The notes: generated from the letters alone by a model not told the origin. Numbered from the stretch's first letter, positions 35,400 to 58,073 are shown. The stretch is DNA of 64,000 bases from Arenicellales bacterium (GCA_965216365.1 CBDCFT010000015.1:185106-249105), one strand, 5' to 3'. A program made the numbers and translations.

Positions 35400-36233
35400 T
35401 CAAGTCCGTTTCCTACAAATAACTTCGATTGGGGCAATATAATCTCTTGAGATATTATCAATCATATTCCCAATTTTTTTCGTAGTGGCTTCCTGCATCA
35501 AAGTGTGAAGGCCAAGAGGCGGTGGGCCTCCGCTCGCTTTTGTTTTTGCCTGCAGTCGCTTAAAGAAGTCGAGTGCGAAGTCACGACGATTGTTTACTTT
35601 GAGGACTTCAAAGCCTGCATCCTTTAGGGCTTCCATGTATTGTTCAGGTGTCGATAATTTACTGATACTACTGTCTGTTGCCCATGGAACCGGGTAAGTC
35701 AACTCACCTTCCTTGTTGCGCATGACGTCATAAACACCAAATGAAGCTTCTGGCCGTAGCGCTCGATGTATCTCAGAAAACAGTTCAGCTTTGTTTTCAA
35801 TATTCATCCCCACATGCATCATGTAAGCACCATCGAAAGTTTCATCCTGAAAAGGCAGCGACAGCGCACTGCCTTGTTGAAGCGTAACTCTCTCCTCCAA
35901 TCCCACCCAGGCACACAATGCATTTCCCGTTTCGATATACTCGTGCGTTAAATCAATGCCGGTAACCCGATTGTTGTACTTGTCAGCGACAAAGCGTGAA
36001 GCGCCTCCCAATCCACAACCCACATCAAGCACATGTTCTTTTGTAGAAAAGTCGAGTTGTGCGAGAAAACTTTCAGTCGCTTGTCGCCCGCCAATGTGGA
36101 ACTCATCGACGGCAGCAAGGTCTTCAATAGTTACGCTATCAACCGTCTTGCCCAACTGAGCAATTGCAGCTTGAATCGCTTGAAGTAAACTTCCATGGGC
36201 GTAATGTTCTGAAATATCGCTCTCATTTGGCAT
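35400..36233 (-). CDS. Class I SAM-dependent methyltransferase
   Basis: VLDVGCGLGG motif I. The likely start is ATG at 36233 with a GGGAG SD; the ORF track's TTG start at 36257 is an upstream extension. Confidence 0.8.
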   Translation of the reverse strand: MPNESDISEHYAHGSLLQAIQAAIAQLGKTVDSVTIEDLAAVDEFHIGGRQATESFLAQLDFSTKEHVLDVGCGLGGASRFVADKYNNRVTGIDLTHEYIETGNALCAWVGLEERVTLQQGSALSLPFQDETFDGAYMMHVGMNIENKAELFSEIHRALRPEASFGVYDVMRNKEGELTYPVPWATDSSISKLSTPEQYMEALKDAGFEVLKVNNRRDFALDFFKRLQAKTKASGGPPPLGLHTLMQEATTKKIGNMIDNISRDYIAPIEVICRKRT

Positions 36234-48619: not shown

Positions 48620-49964
48620 GAGACCCTGACCCTGTAAATAATTCTGTGTAACCGCCCATAGATGGGTTTACAGGTGTTGAGTGATTCGATCACCAAACTC
48701 AATACTAAATCGGTTTAACGCAAGCTTCCAGTTCTGAATCGGCATGGTCCATTTCTTGGATGCTTGGTTGATTGCCAGATAGACAACTTTCAAAGCAGAA
48801 TCATCTGTCGGGAACAGCTTTCGTTTCTTCGTCGCTTTACGAATCACACTGTTCAATGACTCGATTGCATTCGTCGTGTAGATCGCTTTGCGGATCTGTG
48901 GGGGATAATCGAAGATCGTGATCAGGTTCAGCCAGTGATCGCGCCAGGACTTGCTGATCTGCGGATATTTGTCATCCCAAGTATCTGCAAAGTTCTCCAG
49001 CGCCGCACTGGCTTCAGCTTCTGAAGCCGACTGATAAATCTTCTTGAGATCAGCCGTTACCCCTTTGTAATCTTTCCAAGGCACTAGCTTCAGGGAATTC
49101 CGAATCATGTGGACGATACACAGTTGCACCTTGGTGTTCGGATATTCCGCCGCTATCGCATCGGGAAAGCCTTTCAGGCCATCCACGCTGGCAATCAGGA
49201 TGTCCTCCAATCCTCGTGTCTTCAGCTCGGTCAGAACAGACAGCCAGAACTTGGCGCCCTCCGTTTCCGCTAGCCACATACCCAGTAATTCCTTATGCCC
49301 TTGCAAATTGATACCGAGAGCCAGATACAGAGACTTGTTGATCACCTGCTTGTCCTGGCGGATTTTCAGTACGATACAGTCCAGGTAAACCACAGGATAA
49401 ATGGCATCCAGAGGCCGGTGCTGCCACTCGACGACCTGATCCAGAACACGATCCGTGACCTTAGAGATCAGCGTTGGCGAGACATCGGCGTCATACAATT
49501 CCTTGAAGCTATCGACGATTTCACGGGGGGTCAAACCCTTAGCGTAAAGAAACAGAATCTGCTCATCCATCTGAGTGAGGCGGGTTTGACCTTTCTTGAT
49601 AAATTCGGGTTCAAACGTCCCGTTACGATCTCTGGGTGTGTCGATCTCGACTTCACCGTGATCGCCCTTGAGGAGCTTAGGGGTGACGCCATTGCGGCTA
49701 TTCCCGCTGCCACGGCCCTTGAGATCGTGTTTAGCGTAACCAAGGTGTTCTTCCATCTCAGCGCCTAGGGCCGTCTCTACAGTGAGTTTGAGAAGCTGTG
49801 AGCTCAGAGCGCTCAGGTCTTTCTCGGATTTGATGTCTTTGGCTAATTCAGCAGCCAGCTCCTTGAGTCTTTTCTCGTCCAAAACAATACTCATGATGTT
49901 TGTCTCCAGTGTAAGATAAGTTAATCATGAGCGGTTACACAATTTAATTTACAGGGTCGAGACC
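48620..49964 (-). mobile_element. IS256-family insertion sequence (~1345 bp) with imperfect terminal inverted repeats
   Basis: IRL gagaccctgaccctgtaaataattctgtgtaaccgc (48620–48655) pairs with the reverse complement of IRR gcggttacacaatttaatttacagggtcgagaccc (49930–49964). It encloses one transposase ORF. Confidence 0.8.
48668..49894 (-). CDS. IS256-family (mutator-type) transposase
   Basis: 408 aa with ...DAIYPVVYLDCIVLKIR... and ...ASVDGLKGFPDAI...CIVHMIRNS..., the IS256 DDE signature regions. Confidence 0.9.
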   Translation of the reverse strand: MSIVLDEKRLKELAAELAKDIKSEKDLSALSSQLLKLTVETALGAEMEEHLGYAKHDLKGRGSGNSRNGVTPKLLKGDHGEVEIDTPRDRNGTFEPEFIKKGQTRLTQMDEQILFLYAKGLTPREIVDSFKELYDADVSPTLISKVTDRVLDQVVEWQHRPLDAIYPVVYLDCIVLKIRQDKQVINKSLYLALGINLQGHKELLGMWLAETEGAKFWLSVLTELKTRGLEDILIASVDGLKGFPDAIAAEYPNTKVQLCIVHMIRNSLKLVPWKDYKGVTADLKKIYQSASEAEASAALENFADTWDDKYPQISKSWRDHWLNLITIFDYPPQIRKAIYTTNAIESLNSVIRKATKKRKLFPTDDSALKVVYLAINQASKKWTMPIQNWKLALNRFSIEFGDRITQHL

Positions 49965-50151: not shown

Positions 50152-51765
50152 CTAACATGAATCAAAGTCCTCCCCGACAAGACACTTCGGATCGTTCCGC
50201 CCCTCTTCCTCGCAAATCTTTTCCAAATACTGATCGATACCACACAGACCATTATCGATCTCAGCATTCAATAGAAAACTCTTTAACATCTCTTCCATGT
50301 GATGAAAGACCTCATCGCTGAACAACTCATGTGCGTCGAGCATCTCGCCCTCGGGCGGCTGATGTTCGATGAACCGAATCTGGGAATTGGGCATCAGACC
50401 TAGCACCAGTTTCATATTGGGAAGCGGTTCGAATGGAGCCGTTTGCGTAATCGGGATGGGAAAATGCCAACCATGGTTACTGCCCTCACAACCGCCAATT
50501 GGTCCTGAGAATTCAATACCCGCTTGTAAAAAGTTTTGGTTGCCAAAGTCAGGATTGAGATGAATGTCTGCCACATCAGGTACGTGATTGAACGGGGGTG
50601 TATCGATGATTTGCTCGCCCACCTGCCAGCTAATGCTGCCGAGGTTTTTGATGTTCATCCCGCAAAAAGTGTCGGGAAATACAAGATCCTGGCCGTCGTT
50701 CTTCCTTGGCAGGAAGTCCGGTAATGCGCCGGTTGGTTTCGTAGGGATGGTCATAAGTGGTACCTCGTGACCATTCTCGGTTTCGATCATGATCCCGAAA
50801 TCGATGACGACATGAGGATTGCTACTGAGCTGAATCCAAGGTGGTAAGTCGGGAAGCCCGGCATCGGTGGCCCCGGGAGCGGAAGGACCTTGAGGATCGT
50901 CGTCACCATCGTCAGGTGCCGCGGCCACCACAAACATTTCCATATCGCGTGTACGAAACCCATTCTGCGCTTGTGCCGATCCAAAGGTCAAAAAGTTATT
51001 GAGGTTGCGCGGCCTCGACAGTCTGCTCTCACCATCGCCTGATGAGAACACACCGACAAAACGCTGATTTCCGGGTCGCCCAATGCGTTCCACGTCGACT
51101 AACTCCAGTCCATCGGCTACCATTTGGTCTCTGAGTTCGCGAAAGGCAACCGGTCTCCGCGGAGTCGTGAATAGATTACTGCCGGTACCGTCACGCCATA
51201 GCCCGGTATAAACCAACTGACCATTGATGCGTTCCACCTCCACATCGATCAAGCGCAATCCTTGTTGGGTTAGCGAGGTGCCGCGCGAGAGAAACGCATC
51301 CTCCTCTAGTGGGCGAGTAACTAGATCGCGTCCCGTGCCGGATCGCCAAAGCCCGACATATCGCCGACCACCATTAGCTCTGCGAAAGATTTCAATATCG
51401 ATTAGCCGTAATCCTTGTGCTGTGCGTGCTTCGCGCTCCTCGCGCAGTTCGATGGGACTCATTGGGCCTACGATAATGTTGCCACCGCTTCCAGCTACCC
51501 AAACTCCCGAATAGACACGACGATTATCGACAATAGCCGTTTCTACATCGATCAGACGTAGACCCTGGTCAACCAACTCAGTACCGCGATCAAGAAAATC
51601 GCTGAACGGTTCGGGCGCCGTGAAGATGTTAGTGCCAGATCCTGAATGCCAAACGGCCTGGAAGCGTAACTCGTCTGAGGACACAATCGTAGCGAATGAA
51701 AATGTAACTATGCATACGATTGCGGTGCTGGAAATCCGTAATATGCGAAATAGTTTGGTACTCAT
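50152..51765 (-). CDS. Secreted protein with five ~50-aa tandem repeats plus a ~280-aa C-terminal domain, function unknown
   Basis: A signal peptide, then repeats with the core LRLIDVE-x5-G-x2-RY-x-G-[VL]-W-R-x-G-[TS]-G. No recognised catalytic motif. Confidence 0.55.
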   Translation of the reverse strand: MSTKLFRILRISSTAIVCIVTFSFATIVSSDELRFQAVWHSGSGTNIFTAPEPFSDFLDRGTELVDQGLRLIDVETAIVDNRRVYSGVWVAGSGGNIIVGPMSPIELREEREARTAQGLRLIDIEIFRRANGGRRYVGLWRSGTGRDLVTRPLEEDAFLSRGTSLTQQGLRLIDVEVERINGQLVYTGLWRDGTGSNLFTTPRRPVAFRELRDQMVADGLELVDVERIGRPGNQRFVGVFSSGDGESRLSRPRNLNNFLTFGSAQAQNGFRTRDMEMFVVAAAPDDGDDDPQGPSAPGATDAGLPDLPPWIQLSSNPHVVIDFGIMIETENGHEVPLMTIPTKPTGALPDFLPRKNDGQDLVFPDTFCGMNIKNLGSISWQVGEQIIDTPPFNHVPDVADIHLNPDFGNQNFLQAGIEFSGPIGGCEGSNHGWHFPIPITQTAPFEPLPNMKLVLGLMPNSQIRFIEHQPPEGEMLDAHELFSDEVFHHMEEMLKSFLLNAEIDNGLCGIDQYLEKICEEEGRNDPKCLVGEDFDSC

Positions 51766-51945: not shown

Positions 51946-52866
51946 TCAGTTGGTAATACCCGACACGGCCGTGCTAAGTGCGCGTCGGGGCTTTATAACC
52001 GCAACATCAAAACGATGGCCTTGTCCAACACCATAACCCGTCAGATAGCGCACGTAGCGTCCTGAATCCGACATTTCATCACCCAAGTCAGCTACTTGCG
52101 GACCACCGATATTGGCCCAGGTTTTATTGGGTTTAGACACTTTGCGCCAGATGGCGGAAAAACGCGGTAACTGTCCCTGATCATGGGTGTAAGCATCCAT
52201 GAATACCAGTCGCCATCCATCGGATTTGCGCTGTGCATCCTGTTGGTCTAGCTGATCCCGCGTGAGAAATGATTTCAATGCGGTACCACCTGGTCGTTTC
52301 TCATAAAAAGCGGCATAGCGTCTTTGACCATTGATAGACACCACGGAGACATTAACAGGGTCCCATCCCTTTGCCGTCAAATCATCGAACTTCGCCTGGT
52401 GCTGCGCTGCATTCAGCCCATGATAAGCCGTCTGCGGTTTGCACCTCGCCTTCTTGAATACCGCGGCATACCGGGGTGAATTACCTTGCCGGTACACATC
52501 CAGCGATCGCAAGCATCTGCCCGCTTGAAACTGATTGTCGAAATACTTCTGATACGAACTTCCGGTCAGGCCGAACTTGGCTGTCCATGAACTGCTGGTG
52601 CGGGTTCGAAATACAAAGTTGAAATAGACTTTACCCCCTACGTCGTAGCCATCCAGTCGTGTCATTTCGTAACCATCGGCGGTGTGTAGATCAAACGCCT
52701 TTTGCATATCTGACGCCGGGATACCGAGACCGACAGCCTCGTAGGATTTGCCTTTTTGCGTCTCCCAGTACGTACCGAAGAAATTAAACGCGTGCGCGGC
52801 AGGTACTAAATACAGTCCAATGAGTAGTGTAATTGCCGTTGATTTCGCTCGTACTGATACAGTCAT
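51946..52866 (-). CDS. Secreted protein with five related ~50-aa repeats (paralogous repeat architecture to 50152–51765)
   Basis: A signal peptide, then repeats with the core [RW]-x-[LV]-x-[MV]-D-x-Y-x6-RY/F-[AS]-A-[VIF]-[WFY]-[RK]-K. Confidence 0.55.
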   Translation of the reverse strand: MTVSVRAKSTAITLLIGLYLVPAAHAFNFFGTYWETQKGKSYEAVGLGIPASDMQKAFDLHTADGYEMTRLDGYDVGGKVYFNFVFRTRTSSSWTAKFGLTGSSYQKYFDNQFQAGRCLRSLDVYRQGNSPRYAAVFKKARCKPQTAYHGLNAAQHQAKFDDLTAKGWDPVNVSVVSINGQRRYAAFYEKRPGGTALKSFLTRDQLDQQDAQRKSDGWRLVFMDAYTHDQGQLPRFSAIWRKVSKPNKTWANIGGPQVADLGDEMSDSGRYVRYLTGYGVGQGHRFDVAVIKPRRALSTAVSGITN

Positions 52867-53301: not shown

Positions 53302-54045
53302 TTACGCTAATTGTCTTGCACAATTCCTAGCGATACCTGAAAAATGACGACTGAACTGATCGATACCACGCACCGATGATTTACTAATACGGTAAATTGT
53401 CGTTGGGTTTGAAAAACCCTTGAGTACCTTTACCCCGTACATCTCCATTGCGATATCAGTGTTCTCCGCAAGCATATCGCTGATATGTTGATCAACGAGT
53501 ACTTCACCGGATTCAGCCAACTGTTCCAGCCGCTGCGCCTTAATAATTGATTCTCCTGTAACGGTATCGTTCCCAACGATAATCTGACCCGCACTAATCC
53601 CGACACGAAGCTGGGGTTCAATTGGTCCCACTCGAGTCGCATTCAACAATGAGTTTGTATGTTGCAGGGTCAATGCAGCACACACTGCGTCGTAGGCAGT
53701 AGAAAATGCAATCACGGCGGCATCGCCCCGTAATTCGAGTGTGTTGCCGTTATGCAGTGCCGTTATATTTTTTATTCGGTAGTACAAATATTGTATTCGC
53801 TCGTGTGCGAGCACCATATCCTTTCTAACAAGATCGGTAGAGCCTGCAATATCAATGTGCAAGATAATTGCCGACATCGTTGTTGCAAGCGATTTGTCCA
53901 ATGGATTTTTATTGGACGGGTTCATCCGCTTTATGAACCGTATTGTATTGGAAAGAATGCTCATTTTTTCTTCCGTCAAAGTATTGTCTTCTGTATTAAC
54001 AGTGTCACTAAAAGACAAGACGAAAGAGTCATGAAATGGTTCCAA
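53302..54045 (-). CDS. Class III nucleotidyl cyclase catalytic-domain protein
   Basis: ILHIDIAGSTDL...LELRGDAAVIAFS...RVGISAGQIIVG cyclase homology-domain motifs. Confidence 0.65.
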   Translation of the reverse strand: MEPFHDSFVLSFSDTVNTEDNTLTEEKMSILSNTIRFIKRMNPSNKNPLDKSLATTMSAIILHIDIAGSTDLVRKDMVLAHERIQYLYYRIKNITALHNGNTLELRGDAAVIAFSTAYDAVCAALTLQHTNSLLNATRVGPIEPQLRVGISAGQIIVGNDTVTGESIIKAQRLEQLAESGEVLVDQHISDMLAENTDIAMEMYGVKVLKGFSNPTTIYRISKSSVRGIDQFSRHFSGIARNCARQLA

Positions 54046-54208
54046 CGAATATCTAAAACTTCAGATTTGACTATTCAAATAAGATTTTTTTGAAAATTTG
54101 GAACTAATTTAAATTCACGTGCGTCATTGGCGGTGCGGTTGTTGTGATAGCCAATCAATACGCGCTAATTAAATTTTAACTATTGTTGATTATCCAAGGA
54201 GATAAAAG

Positions 54209-54565
54209 ATGACTGATAAATATCTTGTTAATTGTGCCTACGGTCCCGAGGAACCCGAAAAAGCGACTATTGCATTCATCGTCGCTTTTACCAGTTCAAA
54301 GACGAATGAAACTGTCCTGTTTGCTACTTCCGGGGCAAGCGATCTTTTGTTGAATGACGACCATCCTATCGTTCAAGCCGATGGCTATGACCCAGTAGAC
54401 AATCTGATTGATGGGTTTATCGAAAACGGCGGGAAAATCTGGTTGTGTCCGGCGTGCGCGAAAGCGAAAGGTATCACCCAAGATGATTTGATTGACGGTG
54501 TTGAGATCGCTGGCGCACCAAAAACAATGGCGTTTCTCGCCGATGGTGCAAAAACACTAATTTAA
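54209..54565 (+). CDS. DsrE/DsrF-like (YchN-like) family protein
   Basis: 118 aa with ...ATIAFIVAFTS...LFATSGASDLL...KIWLCPACAKAKGI...; an ATG with an AGGAGA SD. Confidence 0.7.
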   Translation: MTDKYLVNCAYGPEEPEKATIAFIVAFTSSKTNETVLFATSGASDLLLNDDHPIVQADGYDPVDNLIDGFIENGGKIWLCPACAKAKGITQDDLIDGVEIAGAPKTMAFLADGAKTLI

Positions 54566-54590
54566 CCCATTATGAATAAGGAGTGAGATC

Positions 54591-55466
54591 ATGTCGCAAG
54601 CACAAGCAATTCAGTACGAGCAGAGTGAGTTCGTTCGATTTTGGAACGAAGTACTGAGCGAAAAATTCAATCGCTATCAAAACATACTTATGAATGGTCT
54701 TTCGTATCATGGCAAGGATGCAATCGATAGCTTGAATTATTCTAATATCAACAGGATCTTGGATGTGGGTTGTGGCTGGGGAGACACAGCTATTGAAATG
54801 GCCGTAAACACTGGATCTGACGGTAGTGTTTTAGGAATTGATTGTGTCGATGCGTTTCTGGCATTCGGTCGCAAACAAGCGCAAACGAGAAATATCGATA
54901 ACGTCGAATTTGTCGCCGCTGACGTTCAGACTTATCCCTTCCAACCCGAGTTCGACTTATGTTTTTCTCGGTTTGGAATGATGTTCTTCGAGAACCCAGT
55001 CTTCGCACTACGTAATGTTCGCAAAGCCTTAAAACCAGGTGGTCAGCTGGTATTCATTACTTGGCGGACAATAGAAGATAACCCTTGGTTTGGGCTACCC
55101 AAAAAAATCGTTCTGAATCATTTGCCTCCGCCAGCGGAAGGCGGGCAAACGTGCGGTCCCGGCCCATTTTCGATGTCAAACCAAGAAGTTGTGACGGCAC
55201 AACTAGCCGCGGCAGGATTTGAAGATATTTCAATCGAAAGAACGGATGGAACTGTCATGGTAGGGCGCGATGTTGAACAGGCCATTGCTTTTCAACTCGC
55301 TTTGGGTCCAGCGGGTGAGATTTTCCGTGAATCCGGCGAACTCGGGATAGAACGAGAGACAGAAATCAAACAAGAAATGTCGCTGGAGCTCACCCCTTAT
55401 TTGACGAATTCCGGGGTAATAATGGATTCCAGTTCCTGGACCATTTCCGCCTACAATCCGACATAA
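54591..55466 (+). CDS. Class I SAM-dependent methyltransferase
   Basis: ILDVGCGWGDT motif I and a ...LKPGGQLVF post-I motif; 26 nt downstream of the DsrE-like gene. Confidence 0.8.
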   Translation: MSQAQAIQYEQSEFVRFWNEVLSEKFNRYQNILMNGLSYHGKDAIDSLNYSNINRILDVGCGWGDTAIEMAVNTGSDGSVLGIDCVDAFLAFGRKQAQTRNIDNVEFVAADVQTYPFQPEFDLCFSRFGMMFFENPVFALRNVRKALKPGGQLVFITWRTIEDNPWFGLPKKIVLNHLPPPAEGGQTCGPGPFSMSNQEVVTAQLAAAGFEDISIERTDGTVMVGRDVEQAIAFQLALGPAGEIFRESGELGIERETEIKQEMSLELTPYLTNSGVIMDSSSWTISAYNPT

Positions 55467-55631
55467 TGGTTAACAGTCCTGAACAATACGCCCGTAGCAC
55501 CTGAGGGCGTATTGTTTGGAATTAATACGTAATATCAATGAAATACATCTCCCATTTTATAATTGGAACCATTTTGGCAACTGAAGCGTCATTGAGACTA
55601 AGGACAATGTTGGAGAGATGCCAAAAATCTG

Positions 55632-56327
55632 ATGGCGACAGCAGAAACAACAATATTGGGCAGTAAGATTAAGAGTGATTTACCGATTGGGCGATCAACA
55701 AATTTTTGGTTATTTAATCCTATGGCTAAGATGACTTCCGAAGCCGATCAGAGAACGCTTTTTGAATCCGCAGTGGCACGATTAATGGACCGTCTCTACG
55801 GCGTTGCTCTGCGCTTCACGAAGAACCCAGCAAATGCCGAAGATTTGCTCGCTGACACCCTTATTAAGGCTTGGAAAAACATTGACAGTTTGGATAACTT
55901 CGACAGTTTCGATGGCTGGATCATGCGCATTCTGTCAAATACTTATATTAGCCAGTGGCGACGAGAAAAAACTGCAGAAGGAATATTTGAAGCTGATGTT
56001 GACGTCGATGATCTTGATGATTCACAGTCATTGTACGCCCGGTTGCACCAACCGTTTTTATTGTGGTGGGGAACGCCGGAACAGACTTTTGTCAACAATC
56101 TGTTGGTTAAGGATATTGAAAAAGCGGTGGATGAATTACCCGACGCCTATCGCGTAGTCGTAATCATGGTAGAGGTACTCGGGTTTACTTATGAAGAAGT
56201 TTCCTCGTCAATCGAAGTGCCGGTAGGCACCGTGAGGTCAAGACTCAATCGTGGACGTCGAAAACTTCAAGATGCACTCTGGCAAAATGCTAAAGATGCG
56301 GGTTTGGTTGCGAATCAGGATGCTTGA
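55632..56327 (+). CDS. ECF-type RNA polymerase sigma-70 family factor
   Basis: Region 2 (...DLLADTLIKAWKNIDSLDN...ISQWRRE) and region 4 (...VVIMVEVLGFTYEEVSSSIEVPVGTVRSRLNRGRRKL). The true start is probably an internal Met near 55722. Confidence 0.8.
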   Translation: MATAETTILGSKIKSDLPIGRSTNFWLFNPMAKMTSEADQRTLFESAVARLMDRLYGVALRFTKNPANAEDLLADTLIKAWKNIDSLDNFDSFDGWIMRILSNTYISQWRREKTAEGIFEADVDVDDLDDSQSLYARLHQPFLLWWGTPEQTFVNNLLVKDIEKAVDELPDAYRVVVIMVEVLGFTYEEVSSSIEVPVGTVRSRLNRGRRKLQDALWQNAKDAGLVANQDA

Positions 56328-56339
56328 GAGAGAATAGCT

Positions 56340-56573
56340 ATGGTAAAGAAAATATCTTGTGAAGAAGTCATGTCCAAACTGTATGCCTATTTAGACCGTG
56401 AGATCGACGGTCCCACCGAAGAAGAGATTGATCATCATCTAGGGCATTGCCGTGAATGCTTCAGTCGAGCCGAGTTTGAAAAATTGCTTCGAAGTAAAGT
56501 TTCCACTGTCGGATCAAAGCAAACACCGGAAGATGTTCAGCAGCGCCTTACATCTTTGATCAAACGTTTTTGA
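56340..56573 (+). CDS. Zinc-binding anti-sigma factor (ZAS, zf-HC2 family)
   Basis: 77 aa with an HHLGHCRECF (H-x3-C-x2-C) motif, immediately downstream of the ECF sigma gene. Confidence 0.7.
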   Translation: MVKKISCEEVMSKLYAYLDREIDGPTEEEIDHHLGHCRECFSRAEFEKLLRSKVSTVGSKQTPEDVQQRLTSLIKRF

Positions 56574-56602
56574 TCTGTTTATTGTACATATAGGATCAAG
56601 AC

Positions 56603-57874
56603 ATGGTTGCCGTACTCGGTTTTTCTAAAGAACAGATTCGTGCCGCCGTTAAAGACATGTACACCATGGTGGCTAAAAACCCCAAGGCACCACTCCACTT
56701 CCCCGTAGGAAAAGAGGCCTGCAAATTAGCCGGATACAGCGAAGAGCAAACTGCACAACTTCCGAAAGAAACACTTGAATCGTTTGCCGGCGTAGGTTGT
56801 CCGTTTCGGGCCAACGTTATTAAACCTGGTCAAACGATTCTCGATGTGGGCTCCGGTTCCGGTACCGACGTATTGATTAGTTCGAAGTTAGTTGGGGAAT
56901 GCGGGAAAGTTTGGGCACTGGATTTGACACCCGCTATGCGTGAAAAACTTAAAACCACGATTTCTACGAACGGCATCGAAAACATCGGGATTTTGGCTGG
57001 CGACGCAGAAGACATACCGTTACCCGATGAAAGCGTCGATGTAGTGACGAGCAACGGTGTATTGAATCTGGTAGCCGATAAGCGAAAAGCAATCTCGGAA
57101 ATATTTCGGGTATTGAAACCCGGTGGGCAAGTTCAAATTGCAGACATTGTTATCGCGAACCCAGTAACTCCGGACTGTGAAGATGATCCTAAATTGTGGG
57201 CGGAATGTGTTGTTGGTGCGACAGTTGACGAAAGTTACTTGAACATGTTCCGTGACGCAGGGTTCGAAGACCTTGAGATCTTAAGGGATTATGACTACTT
57301 TGCTTATAGCCCAAGCAAAGACACACAGGAGGTGGCTAAGCAATTTGGCGCCCATGGCATCGAATTAAGTATGCGCCGGGGCGAACAGGCACCTCATACT
57401 CTTGTGCAATGGGCGAAACGTCTTGATCCAAGGCGTACGATAAGGAACATACAACGAAGAGGCCTATGGGGTACAGTGACATTTATCGTTGCACTGATTA
57501 CTTGTTACGGTACGCTGGGCGCAATAGCATTAATGTCCGCGCTAGGTGTATCCATGGCACTTAATAATGATGTTTGGGCGGGCACAATCATTTTGTTCGC
57601 CACGGTTACGACCATCATTATCGCAATGGGTATAAAAAAACATCGTTCACTTATCCCAATGCTCATAGCAGTTGTTGGAACCTGTGTACTGATTTACACG
57701 ATGTATATTCAATACAATTTTGCCATTGAGATTGTTGGGTTTTTTCTCCTGGCCATAGCAACGTACACCGACTTCGATCATCGGCGATGGTCCAATGTGC
57801 CTGGAGGAAAGCGTAATTTCTTAAAAAACGATCGCCCCAAAGAATTTCCTTACAAGACGAGTACTGAAAGTTAA
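56603..57874 (+). CDS. ArsM-like SAM methyltransferase fused to a C-terminal 4-TM membrane domain
   Basis: N-terminal ...DMYTMVAKNP...SFAGVGCPF...ILDVGSGSGTD...LKPGGQVQIADIV resembles arsenite/thiol methyltransferases. Residues ~290–400 form four hydrophobic helices. Confidence 0.7.
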   Translation: MVAVLGFSKEQIRAAVKDMYTMVAKNPKAPLHFPVGKEACKLAGYSEEQTAQLPKETLESFAGVGCPFRANVIKPGQTILDVGSGSGTDVLISSKLVGECGKVWALDLTPAMREKLKTTISTNGIENIGILAGDAEDIPLPDESVDVVTSNGVLNLVADKRKAISEIFRVLKPGGQVQIADIVIANPVTPDCEDDPKLWAECVVGATVDESYLNMFRDAGFEDLEILRDYDYFAYSPSKDTQEVAKQFGAHGIELSMRRGEQAPHTLVQWAKRLDPRRTIRNIQRRGLWGTVTFIVALITCYGTLGAIALMSALGVSMALNNDVWAGTIILFATVTTIIIAMGIKKHRSLIPMLIAVVGTCVLIYTMYIQYNFAIEIVGFFLLAIATYTDFDHRRWSNVPGGKRNFLKNDRPKEFPYKTSTES

Positions 57875-58073
57875 GAAAACTTCAAATAAGCAAATATTTT
57901 CGTTGACGCACTGGCAGTTTATTCCGCTTAGTGCTCGTTTAGGGACATTTTTAAGACGCAGAAAAAACATCCGCTTTGGGTCGATTTCGGAACTTGACGT
58001 TTCGACTTGATTTAATCTGATCTATAGACCAAGTATCGATTTTTTCGGGCAAGGCCTTGCTAATGGATTCTTC

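What the first reader, a model, noticed from the sequence alone, without database searches (positions are those of the whole stretch)
54209..57874. Co-directional cluster DsrE-like – methyltransferase – ECF sigma – ZAS anti-sigma – ArsM-like membrane-anchored methyltransferase
A zinc anti-sigma factor (HxxxCxxC) typically releases its ECF sigma upon thiol-oxidative or electrophile stress. Here the pair is sandwiched between two SAM methyltransferases, one fused to a 4-TM domain with an arsenite/thiol-methyltransferase-like N-terminus, and a DsrE-like persulfide-carrier-type protein. This gene combination suggests a redox-triggered methylation or detoxification module (for sulfide, selenide, arsenite or a reactive thiol). 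I do not recognise it as a described system.
Basis: inference. Interest (0 to 1): 0.55.

Follow-up and report, generated by a model that had tools for sequence, protein, structure and literature searches.

The report
Stress-switched membrane methyltransferase gene module
A compact, self-regulating gene cluster found in many Proteobacteria couples a thiol-stress sigma/anti-sigma switch to an arsenic-methyltransferase-like enzyme that has lost its arsenic-binding site and is fused to a mercury-transporter-like membrane domain; no description was found in the literature searched, and it probably methylates a reactive sulfur-, selenium- or metalloid-type compound.

Summary
The five genes are real, at the stated coordinates, with the stated domains. 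The 4-TM tail is specifically a MerC-like domain. Comparative evidence shows a genuine module. Sigma, ZAS and the ArsM-like methyltransferase are adjacent in 77/80 genomes found through the methyltransferase. They are also adjacent in 17/17 metagenome loci found through close sigma homologues, against 1/41 for distant ones. A SigH/SigR-type promoter motif (GGAAC-N17-CGTC) occurs exactly twice in the 64-kb window, upstream of the DsrE-like gene and of the sigma gene. It recurs before these genes across phyla (118 sites against 3-15 in shuffles; 29/34 against 2/46 loci in an independent control). The sigma is closest to M. tuberculosis SigH. The anti-sigma keeps all four RsrA zinc ligands in 78/78 homologues. 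The enzyme is not a canonical ArsM: ArsM Cys72 and Cys174 are Val and Gly in 79/79 relatives, and only the Cys224 equivalent is kept. The MerC-like tail keeps one of MerC's two TM1 cysteines. The DsrE-like protein has an invariant CxxC. The 291-aa methyltransferase is a variable accessory. Most likely this is an autoregulated thiol-stress switch driving membrane-coupled methylation of a soft nucleophile. The regulation is well supported; the substrate is inferred. It is a new variant of known kinds, and no description was found in the searchable literature.

The parts
54100..54129 (+). P1: ECF (SigH/SigR-type) promoter-like site GGAAC-N16-GCGTCATTG. Its -10 element ends 84 nt before the DsrE-like start codon.
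   Evidence: Exact match; one of only two in 64 kb. The same motif lies upstream of DsrE-like genes in 15 other loci. Spacing equals the M. tuberculosis SigH consensus (PMC3489674).
54209..54565 (+). DsrE-fold protein (118 aa) with a CxxC motif (C80-P-A-C83).
   Evidence: PF02635 E 2.5e-11. CxxC is invariant in all module-linked homologues. C80 aligns with the conserved Cys of DsrE-family structures 3mc3, 3pnx, 2qs7 and YchN.
54591..55466 (+). Accessory class-I SAM methyltransferase (291 aa, UbiE-like), probably co-transcribed with the DsrE-like gene (25-nt gap).
   Evidence: Pfam Methyltransf_25/31/11. Counterparts occupy the same position only in L003 (34% identity), L024 and L025 (56%). No specific characterised relative.
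55477..55520 (+). Strong hairpin between the two transcription units; likely terminator or attenuator.
   Evidence: MFE -25.9 kcal/mol, z = -5.08, 0/200 shuffles as stable. The U-tract is weak, and the simple terminator scan did not list it.
55565..55594 (+). P2: second ECF promoter-like site GGAAC-N16-GCGTCATTG. Its -10 element ends 42 nt before the sigma start codon, which implies autoregulation.
   Evidence: Exact match. The motif lies upstream of the sigma gene in 31 genome loci and in 29/34 metagenome loci of the same sigma clade, against 2/46 for distant ECF sigmas.
55632..56327 (+). ECF sigma factor (231 aa), SigH/SigR-like, with about 38 residues before region 2.
   Evidence: Sigma70_r2 and r4_2. 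Best NCBIfam hit is TIGR02947 SigH_actino at 128.6 bits, below the cut-off. Closest solved structure is M. tuberculosis SigH, E 3.5e-31.
56340..56573 (+). Soluble zinc-binding anti-sigma factor (77 aa), RsrA-like.
   Evidence: zf-HC2 E 2e-10. TIGR03988 RsrA 54 bits against a 62.5 cut-off. Closest PDB entry is RsrA 5frf. C7, H33, C37 and C40 are invariant in 78/78 homologues.
56603..57388 (+). Cytoplasmic ArsM-derived SAM methyltransferase domain (aa 1-262) of the 423-aa fusion protein.
   Evidence: phmmer against CrArsM E 5.5e-27. Foldseek top hits are ArsM/AS3MT at E about 1e-16. ArsM Cys72 is Val, Cys174 is Gly and Cys224 is Cys in 79/79 relatives.
57464..57790 (+). MerC-like 4-TM domain (aa 288-396) of the fusion, with a single invariant TM1 Cys (C301, motif ACYGT); N-in/C-in topology.
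   Evidence: PF03203 32.3 bits against GA 27.6. hhalign against verified Tn21 MerC gives E 2e-5, and C301 aligns with the second Cys of CAAC. The same motif occurs in standalone relatives.

Best explanation
The cluster is a self-contained, autoregulated stress module made of two ECF-dependent transcription units.

Shown or strongly supported by comparative evidence: a SigH/SigR-like ECF sigma and an RsrA-type zinc anti-sigma (ligands C7, H33, C37, C40) are obligately linked to an ArsM-derived methyltransferase. Two identical promoter-like sites (GGAAC-N17-CGTC) sit in front of the DsrE-like/methyltransferase pair and in front of the sigma-ZAS-methyltransferase operon.

Inferred mechanism: a thiol-reactive agent attacks the zinc-thiolate site of the anti-sigma and frees sigma. 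Sigma then amplifies its own operon and switches on the effectors. The main effector is a cytoplasm-facing SAM methyltransferase tethered to a MerC-like four-helix membrane domain. It keeps one active-site cysteine (C202, equivalent to ArsM Cys224) and one mid-membrane cysteine (C301). I propose that it captures a soft, thiophilic nucleophile at the membrane and methylates it to a less reactive, membrane-permeant or volatile product, which would switch the signal off again. The DsrE-fold CxxC protein would act as carrier or reductant. The second methyltransferase would add a further methyl group.

Because the As(III)-binding triad is absent, the favoured substrates are chalcogen species (sulfide or persulfide, selenide, tellurite-derived species), or possibly a mono-thiol-bound methylated metalloid, rather than arsenite.
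For: Genes and domains.

Synteny from the methyltransferase side: sigma and ZAS lie directly upstream in 77/80 loci across Alpha-, Beta- and Gammaproteobacteria and a few other phyla, with unrelated flanks.

Synteny from the sigma side: 17/17 sigma homologues at >=42% identity have ZAS plus methyltransferase downstream, against 1/41 below 42%.

Promoters: two exact sites in the window. 118 strict sites occur in 80 loci against 3-15 in shuffles. Of these, 59 lie within 260 nt upstream of sigma (31), DsrE-like (15) or paralogue methyltransferase (13) genes. Independent control: 29/34 against 2/46 loci. Spacing and sequence match the SigH/SigR consensus (PMC3489674).

Sigma is closest to M. tuberculosis SigH and the ZAS to RsrA, with zinc ligands invariant in 78/78.

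Effector: ArsM is the closest fold and sequence, but Cys72 and Cys174 are replaced in 79/79 relatives; their roles are described in PMC6138428. The tail is MerC-like with a single conserved Cys and N-in/C-in topology. A different methyltransferase is fused to the same membrane domain in P0166. The DsrE-like CxxC is invariant and sits at the family's conserved Cys position.

No ars, mer or sulfide-oxidation genes recur nearby.

Precedents only: H2S/methanethiol methyltransferases are often membrane-bound (PMC12904073), and Se/Te detoxification uses two sequential methyltransferases (PMC10844679, PMC11742336).
Against: No experimental data exist for any member. Redox sensitivity of a ZAS cannot be read from sequence, and some HxxxCxxC anti-sigmas are not redox sensors. 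Sigma and ZAS both score below the NCBIfam SigH and RsrA cut-offs. The promoter sites are sequence motifs, not mapped transcription starts. Nothing identifies the substrate: no sulfur or selenium metabolism genes recur in the neighbourhood. About 24 of 80 loci have a soluble methyltransferase with no membrane tail, so the membrane coupling is not essential to the family. C192, which could form a two-Cys site with C202 in the window protein, is conserved in only 33/79 relatives. The loop carrying these cysteines is modelled with low confidence.
Confidence: 0.55

Rival explanations
1. It is a genuine arsenite methylation and resistance system (ArsM) that uses an ECF/ZAS switch instead of ArsR. 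As(III) would displace zinc from the three-Cys/one-His anti-sigma site, and the enzyme would methylate arsenic.
For: ArsM/AS3MT are the best sequence and structure matches. The Cys224 equivalent is invariant, and the Cys44 equivalent is present in 63/79 relatives. From general knowledge, As(III) can attack C3H-type zinc sites.
Against: ArsM Cys72 is Val and Cys174 is Gly in 79/79 main enzymes. The 50 paralogues follow the same pattern: Val and Gly at these sites in 49/50. [quoted passage not shown] The score is below the PRK11873 cut-off (198 against 263). No ars genes recur nearby.
Confidence: 0.12
2. The methyltransferase acts on an organic membrane-associated electrophile, such as a quinone or another lipophilic thiol-reactive compound, by C- or O-methylation. 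This would fit the way SigR-type systems respond to electrophiles.
For: There are broad hits to UbiE/MenG-type quinone methyltransferase models. The enzyme is membrane-tethered. The sigma/ZAS pair is SigH/RsrA-like.
Against: The closest relatives by far are metalloid methyltransferases, and the one invariant Cys sits at ArsM's metalloid-binding position. The co-regulated DsrE-fold CxxC protein and the single membrane Cys point to thiol-mediated handling of a soft inorganic species.
Confidence: 0.15
3. The methyltransferase is part of the signalling device rather than an output. For example, it could modify the zinc-thiolate of the anti-sigma, or the sigma itself, to set or reset the switch.
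For: Sigma, ZAS and methyltransferase are adjacent in both search directions (77/80; 17/17 against 1/41). All other partners are optional.
Against: I know of no precedent for this in ECF systems. The same promoter also drives DsrE-like, paralogous methyltransferase, cupin and globin genes, which looks like an output regulon. The only single-polypeptide ZAS-methyltransferase (P0035) is probably a frameshift on a 2x-coverage contig.
Confidence: 0.08
4. It is a mercury-handling system. The MerC-like domain would import Hg(II), and the enzyme would process it.
For: The Pfam MerC match is above the gathering threshold, and homology to Tn21 MerC is supported.
Against: Only one of MerC's two TM1 cysteines is kept, and the C-terminal Cys pair is absent. 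No merA, merR, merP or merT recurs nearby. From established chemistry, SAM donates an electrophilic methyl group and is not expected to methylate electrophilic Hg(II).
Confidence: 0.05

Closest known systems
SigR-RsrA / SigH-RshA thiol-oxidative-stress switch of Actinobacteria (ECF12)
   Same: The sigma is closest to M. tuberculosis SigH (E 3.5e-31). The anti-sigma is small, soluble and closest to RsrA, with all four zinc ligands. The anti-sigma gene lies directly downstream of sigma. The promoter GGAAC-N17-CGTC has the same -35 element and spacing as (G/T)GGAA(C/T)A-16 nt-(C/G)GTT. A promoter upstream of the sigma gene implies autoregulation. The sigma also has an N-terminal extension, as sigma-R and SigH do.
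   Different: It is found in Proteobacteria, not Actinobacteria. Both proteins score below the NCBIfam cut-offs. The -10 element ends in C, not T. The apparent regulon is a compact local methyltransferase module rather than thioredoxin or mycothiol genes.
ArsM / AS3MT arsenite S-adenosylmethionine methyltransferase
   Same: It shares the fold and the N-terminal plus central domains, at about 29-30% identity. It has the SAM-binding motifs and a conserved Cys at the Cys224 position.
   Different: It lacks Cys72 and Cys174. The ArsM C-terminal domain is replaced by a membrane domain or is absent. It is not next to arsR or other ars genes.
MerC mercury transporter (Tn21)
   Same: It has four transmembrane helices with both ends in the cytoplasm. 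It scores above the Pfam threshold. The TM1 cysteine aligns with the second Cys of CAAC.
   Different: It has a single Cys instead of CxxC and no C-terminal Cys pair. It is not in a mer operon. It is fused to a methyltransferase. It defines its own subfamily with the motif (A/S)CYGT, which also exists as standalone proteins of 120-150 aa.
DsrE/TusD/YchN sulfur-relay fold proteins
   Same: It has the DsrE fold, with a Cys at the position conserved in DsrE-family structures.
   Different: It carries an extra second Cys that makes a CxxC, as E. coli YchN does (function unknown). No DsrF/H or TusB/C partners are present. It scores far below the DsrE2 equivalog cut-off (17 against 210 bits).
H2S/methanethiol S-methyltransferases (MddA, MddH, MddM2) and two-step Se/Te methylation (TPMT then INMT)
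   Same: This is a functional analogy only. These SAM enzymes detoxify reactive chalcogen species into volatile products. Several are membrane-bound, and some pathways need two methyltransferases.
   Different: They belong to different methyltransferase families (MddH is a close UbiE relative). No sigma/anti-sigma or MerC-like link has been reported for them. Homology was not tested here because no reference sequences were available.
Channel-enzyme fusions in arsenic resistance (AqpS-ArsC, Acr3-ArsC)
   Same: They share the concept of fusing a membrane permeation domain to the enzyme that processes the permeant (PMC6205960).
   Different: The domains and the chemistry are unrelated.

Membership tests
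ArsM/AS3MT arsenite methyltransferase | Four conserved cysteines (CmArsM Cys44, Cys72, Cys174, Cys224), with Cys174-Cys224 forming the metalloid site (PMC6138428) | tested here: not met
   The window protein has C40, V64, G152 and C202 at these positions. Family-wide, Cys72 is Val in 79/79, Cys174 is Gly in 79/79, Cys224 is Cys in 79/79 and Cys44 is Cys in 63/79.
ArsM/AS3MT arsenite methyltransferase | Score above the curated NCBIfam cut-off (PRK11873) | tested here: not met
   198 bits against a cut-off of 263.
ArsM/AS3MT arsenite methyltransferase | Class-I SAM-binding fold closest to ArsM structures | tested here: met
   phmmer E 5.5e-27 to 5evj. Foldseek top 7 hits are ArsM/AS3MT, E about 1e-16.
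ArsM/AS3MT arsenite methyltransferase | ars operon context or ArsR control | tested here: not met
   No ars genes appear among the recurrent neighbours in 80 loci. An ECF/ZAS pair is present instead.
MerC mercury transporter | Pfam PF03203 gathering threshold and a four-TM architecture | tested here: met
   32.3 bits against 27.6. hhalign E 2e-5 against verified Tn21 MerC. Four helices and positive-inside topology.
MerC mercury transporter | TM1 CxxC metal-binding pair | tested here: not met
   Only the second Cys is kept (C301). The first position is Leu, Ala or Ile. The motif is ACYGT.
MerC mercury transporter | mer operon context (merR, merA, merP, merT) | tested here: not met
   None appear among recurrent neighbours or in the window.
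ECF12 SigR/SigH sigma factors | Sigma-2 plus sigma-4 architecture with a soluble HxxxCxxC anti-sigma encoded directly downstream | tested here: met
   The gap between the sigma and ZAS genes is 12 nt.
ECF12 SigR/SigH sigma factors | Curated family score (TIGR02947 SigH_actino) | tested here: not met
   128.6 bits against a cut-off of 251.55, although it is the best-scoring model. Assignment with ECF Hub group HMMs could not be run.
ECF12 SigR/SigH sigma factors | Promoter GGAA(C/T)A-16 nt-(C/G)GTT | tested here: inconclusive
   The -35 element and spacing are the same, but the -10 is CGTC instead of CGTT. No transcription starts have been mapped.
RsrA-type redox-sensing ZAS | Zinc ligands equivalent to RsrA C11, H37, C41, C44 | tested here: met
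   C7, H33, C37 and C40 are invariant in 78/78 homologues. RsrA is the best PDB hit.
RsrA-type redox-sensing ZAS | Curated score (TIGR03988) and demonstrated disulfide-triggered sigma release | tested here: not met
   54 bits against a cut-off of 62.5. Redox responsiveness itself cannot be tested with these tools.
DsrE/TusD sulfur-relay proteins | DsrE fold with the conserved active-site Cys | tested here: met
   PF02635 44.2 bits against 22.7. C80 aligns with the conserved Cys of 3mc3, 3pnx, 2qs7 and YchN.
DsrE/TusD sulfur-relay proteins | Hetero-oligomer partners (DsrF/H, TusB/C) or the DsrE2 equivalog score | tested here: not met
   No such neighbours were found. NF047629 scores 17.4 bits against 210.
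MddH/MddA H2S-methanethiol methyltransferases | Sequence membership in the MddH (UbiE-like) or MddA family | not tested
The 291-aa enzyme hits UbiE models only weakly (about 60 bits), whereas MddH is 37% identical to E. coli UbiE (PMC11445057).

The most novel reading that the evidence does not exclude
This sigma/anti-sigma/methyltransferase module is an unrecognised, widely distributed pathway. Proteobacteria in soils, sediments, groundwater and sponge symbionts would use it to sense reactive sulfur or selenium/tellurium species through a zinc-thiolate switch. They would then convert those species at the membrane into volatile methylated products. That would be a new, regulated biological source of gases such as methanethiol/dimethylsulfide or dimethylselenide, catalysed by an ArsM-derived enzyme clade with a one-cysteine active site and a MerC-like cysteine relay.
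Probability: 0.25. Interest if true: 0.75.

Novelty: new variant of a known kind. Interest (0 to 1): 0.6.

Why it matters
If the model holds, it defines a proteobacterial counterpart of the actinobacterial SigR/SigH thiol-stress switch with a compact regulon that travels with it. That regulon gives directly testable promoter targets.

It would also show that part of what databases label 'arsenite methyltransferase' or 'MerC family mercury resistance protein' (names seen) is a separate enzyme clade. That clade lacks the As(III)-binding cysteine triad and the complete MerC Hg-binding motif, so it probably does something else. This matters for metagenomic inventories of arsM and mer genes.

Finally, it offers a candidate regulated route for volatilising sulfur, selenium, tellurium or methylated metalloids. 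Several cultured carriers are available for experiments (Chelativorans, Nitratireductor, Chelatococcus, Fodinicurvata and Aromatoleum species).

Tried and rejected
1. Looking up the window's own fusion protein on public contigs returned nothing. The cluster look-up showed all five proteins are unnamed singletons from one 347-kb contig, so the source organism stays unidentified. The nearest relatives are sponge-associated Gammaproteobacteria.

2. P0035, a 507-aa ZAS-methyltransferase-MerC polypeptide, was considered as 'Rosetta stone' evidence for physical coupling. I rejected it. It is a single sequence on a 2x-coverage long-read contig, and its ZAS C-terminus departs from the consensus, so it is probably a frameshift.

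3. I considered selenocysteine at a key Cys to explain the split methyltransferase in L029. I rejected this because the break is a masked run of N.

4. A looser promoter pattern in the window (one mismatch) gave matches at chance level (4 against 4.18 expected). Only the two exact sites are credited.

5. The sigma-70 promoter and simple terminator scans were uninformative.

6. Literature searches for ECF plus DsrE/methyltransferase, anti-sigma plus arsenite methyltransferase, MerC-domain methyltransferase and MerC/ArsM fusion found nothing relevant. The supplements of the ECF reclassification paper are not held, so no formal ECF group number could be assigned.

7. MddH was considered as the identity of the 291-aa enzyme. 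This is unsupported, because its UbiE similarity is only weak.

8. C192 was first taken as a family-invariant partner of C202. The wider alignment shows it is Cys in only 33/79 relatives.

Full report
**Observation**

The five co-directional ORFs are present exactly as reported. Pfam and NCBIfam confirm the following:
- a DsrE-fold protein (54209-54565);
- a generic class-I SAM methyltransferase (54591-55466);
- an ECF sigma with regions 2 and 4 only (55632-56327);
- a 77-aa zf-HC2 anti-sigma with H33-x3-C37-x2-C40 plus C7 (56340-56573);
- a 423-aa protein with an ArsM-like N-terminal part (PRK11873 198 bits, E 2e-58, below the 263-bit cut-off).

It scores above the Pfam gathering threshold for MerC (32.3 against 27.6 bits).

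The cluster lies on the + strand between minus-strand genes. Upstream are a cyclase-domain gene and two BTRD1-repeat genes. Downstream are a convergent thiolase and ABC-transporter genes. Its G+C content is lower (0.42-0.47) than that of the flanks (0.48-0.54).

**Is it a module?**

I built an alignment of fusion-protein homologues and scanned one genome per species with it. This returned 80 loci, mostly Alpha-, Beta- and Gammaproteobacteria, plus a few Binatia, Gemmatimonadota and an actinomycete MAG. The closest (67-69% identity) are sponge-associated Gammaproteobacteria.

BLAST of the window's proteins against all ORFs of these loci shows the following:
- Sigma and ZAS lie immediately upstream of the methyltransferase in 77/80 loci. 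One exception is cut by a contig end.
- A DsrE-like gene is present in 31 loci.
- A second, paralogous ArsM-like methyltransferase (about 35% identical) is present in about 50 copies, usually just upstream of sigma.
- Counterparts of the window's 291-aa methyltransferase occur only in L003, L024 and L025.

An unbiased clustering of all ORFs found no other widely recurrent neighbour except a secreted cupin (18-23 loci). No ars, mer or sulfide-oxidation genes recur. Flanking genes are unrelated between genomes.

The reverse test used a sigma alignment against metagenome contigs. All 17 sigma homologues at >=42% identity with at least 700 nt downstream carry ZAS plus the methyltransferase. Only 1 of 41 at <42% identity does. 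The sigma clade and the methyltransferase clade are therefore coupled in both directions.

**Promoters**

Both long intergenic regions of the window contain GGAAC-N16-GCGTCATTG, at 54100-54129 and 55565-55594. These are the only two matches in 64 kb, and both are exact. A one-mismatch version of a shorter pattern adds only chance-level hits.

Across the 80 genome loci the strict pattern GGAAC-N15/16-GCGTC occurs 118 times, against 3-15 in local shuffles. Of these, 59 sites lie within 260 nt upstream of sigma (31), DsrE-like (15) or paralogue methyltransferase (13) genes. Such upstream windows make up only 5.9% of positions. The remaining sites are also far above chance. They precede a secreted Cupin_7 (ChrR-like) protein, a bacterial globin, DUF302, a 130-aa unknown protein and AraC regulators.

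In the independent metagenome set the motif is present in 29/34 loci of the >=42% sigma clade (3.64 per 10 kb). It is present in only 2/46 loci with more distant ECF sigmas (0.08 per 10 kb).

The consensus is GGAAC(C/T)..TT...tGCGTCnT. Read as GGAAC-N17-CGTC, it has the same -35 element and spacing as M. tuberculosis SigH promoters, (G/T)GGAA(C/T)A-16 nt-(C/G)GTT (PMC3489674).

A stable hairpin (-25.9 kcal/mol, z -5.1) lies between the 291-aa gene and P2. This suggests two transcription units: P1-dsrE-like-MT291, and P2-sigma-ZAS-methyltransferase/MerC-like. The short gaps inside the second unit carry Shine-Dalgarno-like sequences.

These are motif-level inferences. No transcription starts have been mapped.

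**The switch**

The sigma's closest solved relative is M. tuberculosis SigH (E 3.5e-31; the next, SigE, is at 1e-20). Its best NCBIfam model is the actinobacterial SigH family, though below the cut-off.

The anti-sigma's closest solved relative is RsrA. C7, H33, C37 and C40, the equivalents of RsrA's zinc ligands, are invariant in 78/78 homologues.

The pair is therefore a proteobacterial relative of the SigR-RsrA/SigH-RshA thiol-stress switch. Whether this ZAS is redox-sensitive cannot be decided from sequence.

**The effector**

ArsM and AS3MT are the closest proteins both by sequence (E 5.5e-27) and by predicted structure (model pLDDT 79.3; Foldseek E about 1e-16).

ArsM enzymes are defined by four cysteines. 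Cys174-Cys224 bind the metalloid, and all four are needed for As(III) methylation (PMC6138428). In the window protein these positions are C40, V64, G152 and C202. In 79/79 orthologues Cys72 is Val, Cys174 is Gly and Cys224 is Cys. The 50 paralogues show the same pattern: Val and Gly in 49/50, and Cys at the third site in 37/50 (12 are gapped there). C192, near C202, is conserved only in the window's subclade (33/79). This is an ArsM-derived clade that lacks the As(III)-binding cysteine triad of ArsM.

The membrane tail is homologous to MerC. I verified the Tn21 MerC reference as 100% identical to annotated merC genes; hhalign against it gives E 2e-5. The tail keeps only the second Cys of MerC's TM1 CAAC pair (C301, motif ACYGT) and lacks the C-terminal Cys pair.

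Charge distribution places the linker, loop 2-3 and the C-tail in the cytoplasm. The methyltransferase is therefore cytoplasmic and C301 sits mid-membrane.

Among the 80 loci:
- 37 have this tail;
- 15 have a 447-449-aa long form with a more divergent MerC-like tail (CAGxPAL and PGxCLEEM motifs; Pfam 25.5 bits in L049);
- 24 have a soluble enzyme;
- the rest are truncated or masked.

An exhaustive HMMER search with the tail found only 209 representatives. Most are standalone proteins of 120-150 aa with the same ACYGT motif. One (P0166) is an unrelated class-I methyltransferase fused to the same domain. That argues for a functional partnership between this membrane domain and methyl transfer.

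**The DsrE-like protein**

The CxxC (C80, C83) is invariant in all module-linked homologues, which fall into three visibly different subfamilies. C80 aligns with the conserved Cys of DsrE-family structures. The second Cys is shared with E. coli YchN, whose function is unknown.

**Interpretation**

The regulatory architecture is well supported by comparative evidence: an autoregulated SigH/RsrA-like switch with a local, portable regulon.

The chemistry is inferred. The evidence for it is this:
- the enzyme descends from a metalloid methyltransferase and keeps one active-site thiol;
- it is tethered to a Cys-bearing transporter-like domain;
- it is co-regulated with a Cys-based carrier-fold protein and, usually, a second methyltransferase.

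This fits thiol-mediated capture and SAM-dependent methylation of a soft nucleophile that is itself thiol-reactive. Methylation would then both detoxify the compound and shut the signal off.

Chalcogen species (sulfide or persulfide, selenide, tellurite-derived species) fit best. Arsenite is disfavoured by the missing cysteines. From established chemistry, Hg(II) is an implausible acceptor for a SAM methyl group. Precedents exist for membrane-bound H2S/methanethiol methyltransferases and for two-enzyme Se/Te methylation, but these are analogies, not evidence.

The rivals are a non-canonical arsenic system, methylation of an organic electrophile, a signalling role for the enzyme, and mercury handling. 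They are listed with their tests.

**Novelty**

Full-text searches found no description of this combination. Source databases label members variously as arsenite methyltransferase, UbiE, or MerC family mercury resistance protein. The tested defining features do not support any of these names.

I rate it a new variant of known kinds: an ECF/ZAS switch and an ArsM-like enzyme, joined in an undescribed and tightly conserved architecture. Interest is moderate to high. Its promoters, cultured carriers and clear biochemical assays make it directly testable.

Noticed in passing
window 53302-54045 (-): A 247-aa protein with an adenylate/guanylate-cyclase catalytic domain (PF00211, E 4.9e-7) is transcribed divergently from the DsrE-like gene. 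A related module on L162 also has a Guanylate_cyc/TPR gene a few kb away. It did not recur in the 80-locus census, so this may be coincidence.
   Followed up: partly
window 50152-51765 (-) and 51946-52866 (-): Two neighbouring proteins carry BTRD1 (polyglycine-hydrolase-like structural repeat) domains. The 306-aa one scores E 2e-44 with four repeats. Neither has an NCBIfam match.
   Followed up: no
window 48668-49894 (-); window 53500-58000: A Mutator-family transposase (PF00872, E 6e-115) lies about 4.3 kb upstream of the module. The module region has lower G+C (0.42-0.47) than its flanks (0.48-0.54). Together with the unrelated flanks in other genomes, this is compatible with horizontal acquisition.
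   Followed up: partly
L016:7380-7901, L017:8447-8917, L032:3784-4308, L049:4340-4831 and others: In other genomes the same promoter motif also precedes genes that are absent from the window. These are a secreted Cupin_7 (ChrR-like) protein (18-23 loci), a bacterial globin (3), a DUF302 protein, AraC-type regulators (4), and a 130-aa protein of no known family found only with the long-form methyltransferase (5).
   Followed up: partly
P0166 (383 aa, metagenomic protein): An unrelated class-I methyltransferase is fused to the same ACYGT MerC-like membrane domain. This suggests that methyltransferase/ACYGT-domain fusions arose more than once. Many standalone 120-150-aa ACYGT proteins also exist.
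   Followed up: partly
L162:5001-6524 (P0035): ZAS, methyltransferase and MerC-like domain are called as one 507-aa protein. The contig is a 2x-coverage long-read assembly, and the ZAS C-terminus departs from the family consensus. It is most likely a frameshift artefact.
   Followed up: yes
L049:6001-7350 and 14 similar loci: A long form of the methyltransferase (447-449 aa) carries a more divergent MerC-like tail. It has a single TM1 Cys (CAGxPAL, compare MerC CAACFPAL) and a conserved cytoplasmic PGxCLEEM motif that recalls MerC's C-terminal Cys region.
   Followed up: partly
window 55632-55745 (+): The sigma ORF has about 38 residues before region 2, with internal Met codons at residues 31 and 34. 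ECF12 sigma-R/SigH use an N-terminal extension to make an unstable isoform (PMC7826278). Whether the same happens here was not examined.
   Followed up: no
window ~35562-36089 (-): Another class-I methyltransferase-like ORF has weak similarity (26-27% identity) to both methyltransferases of the cluster. It has no promoter motif nearby.
   Followed up: no
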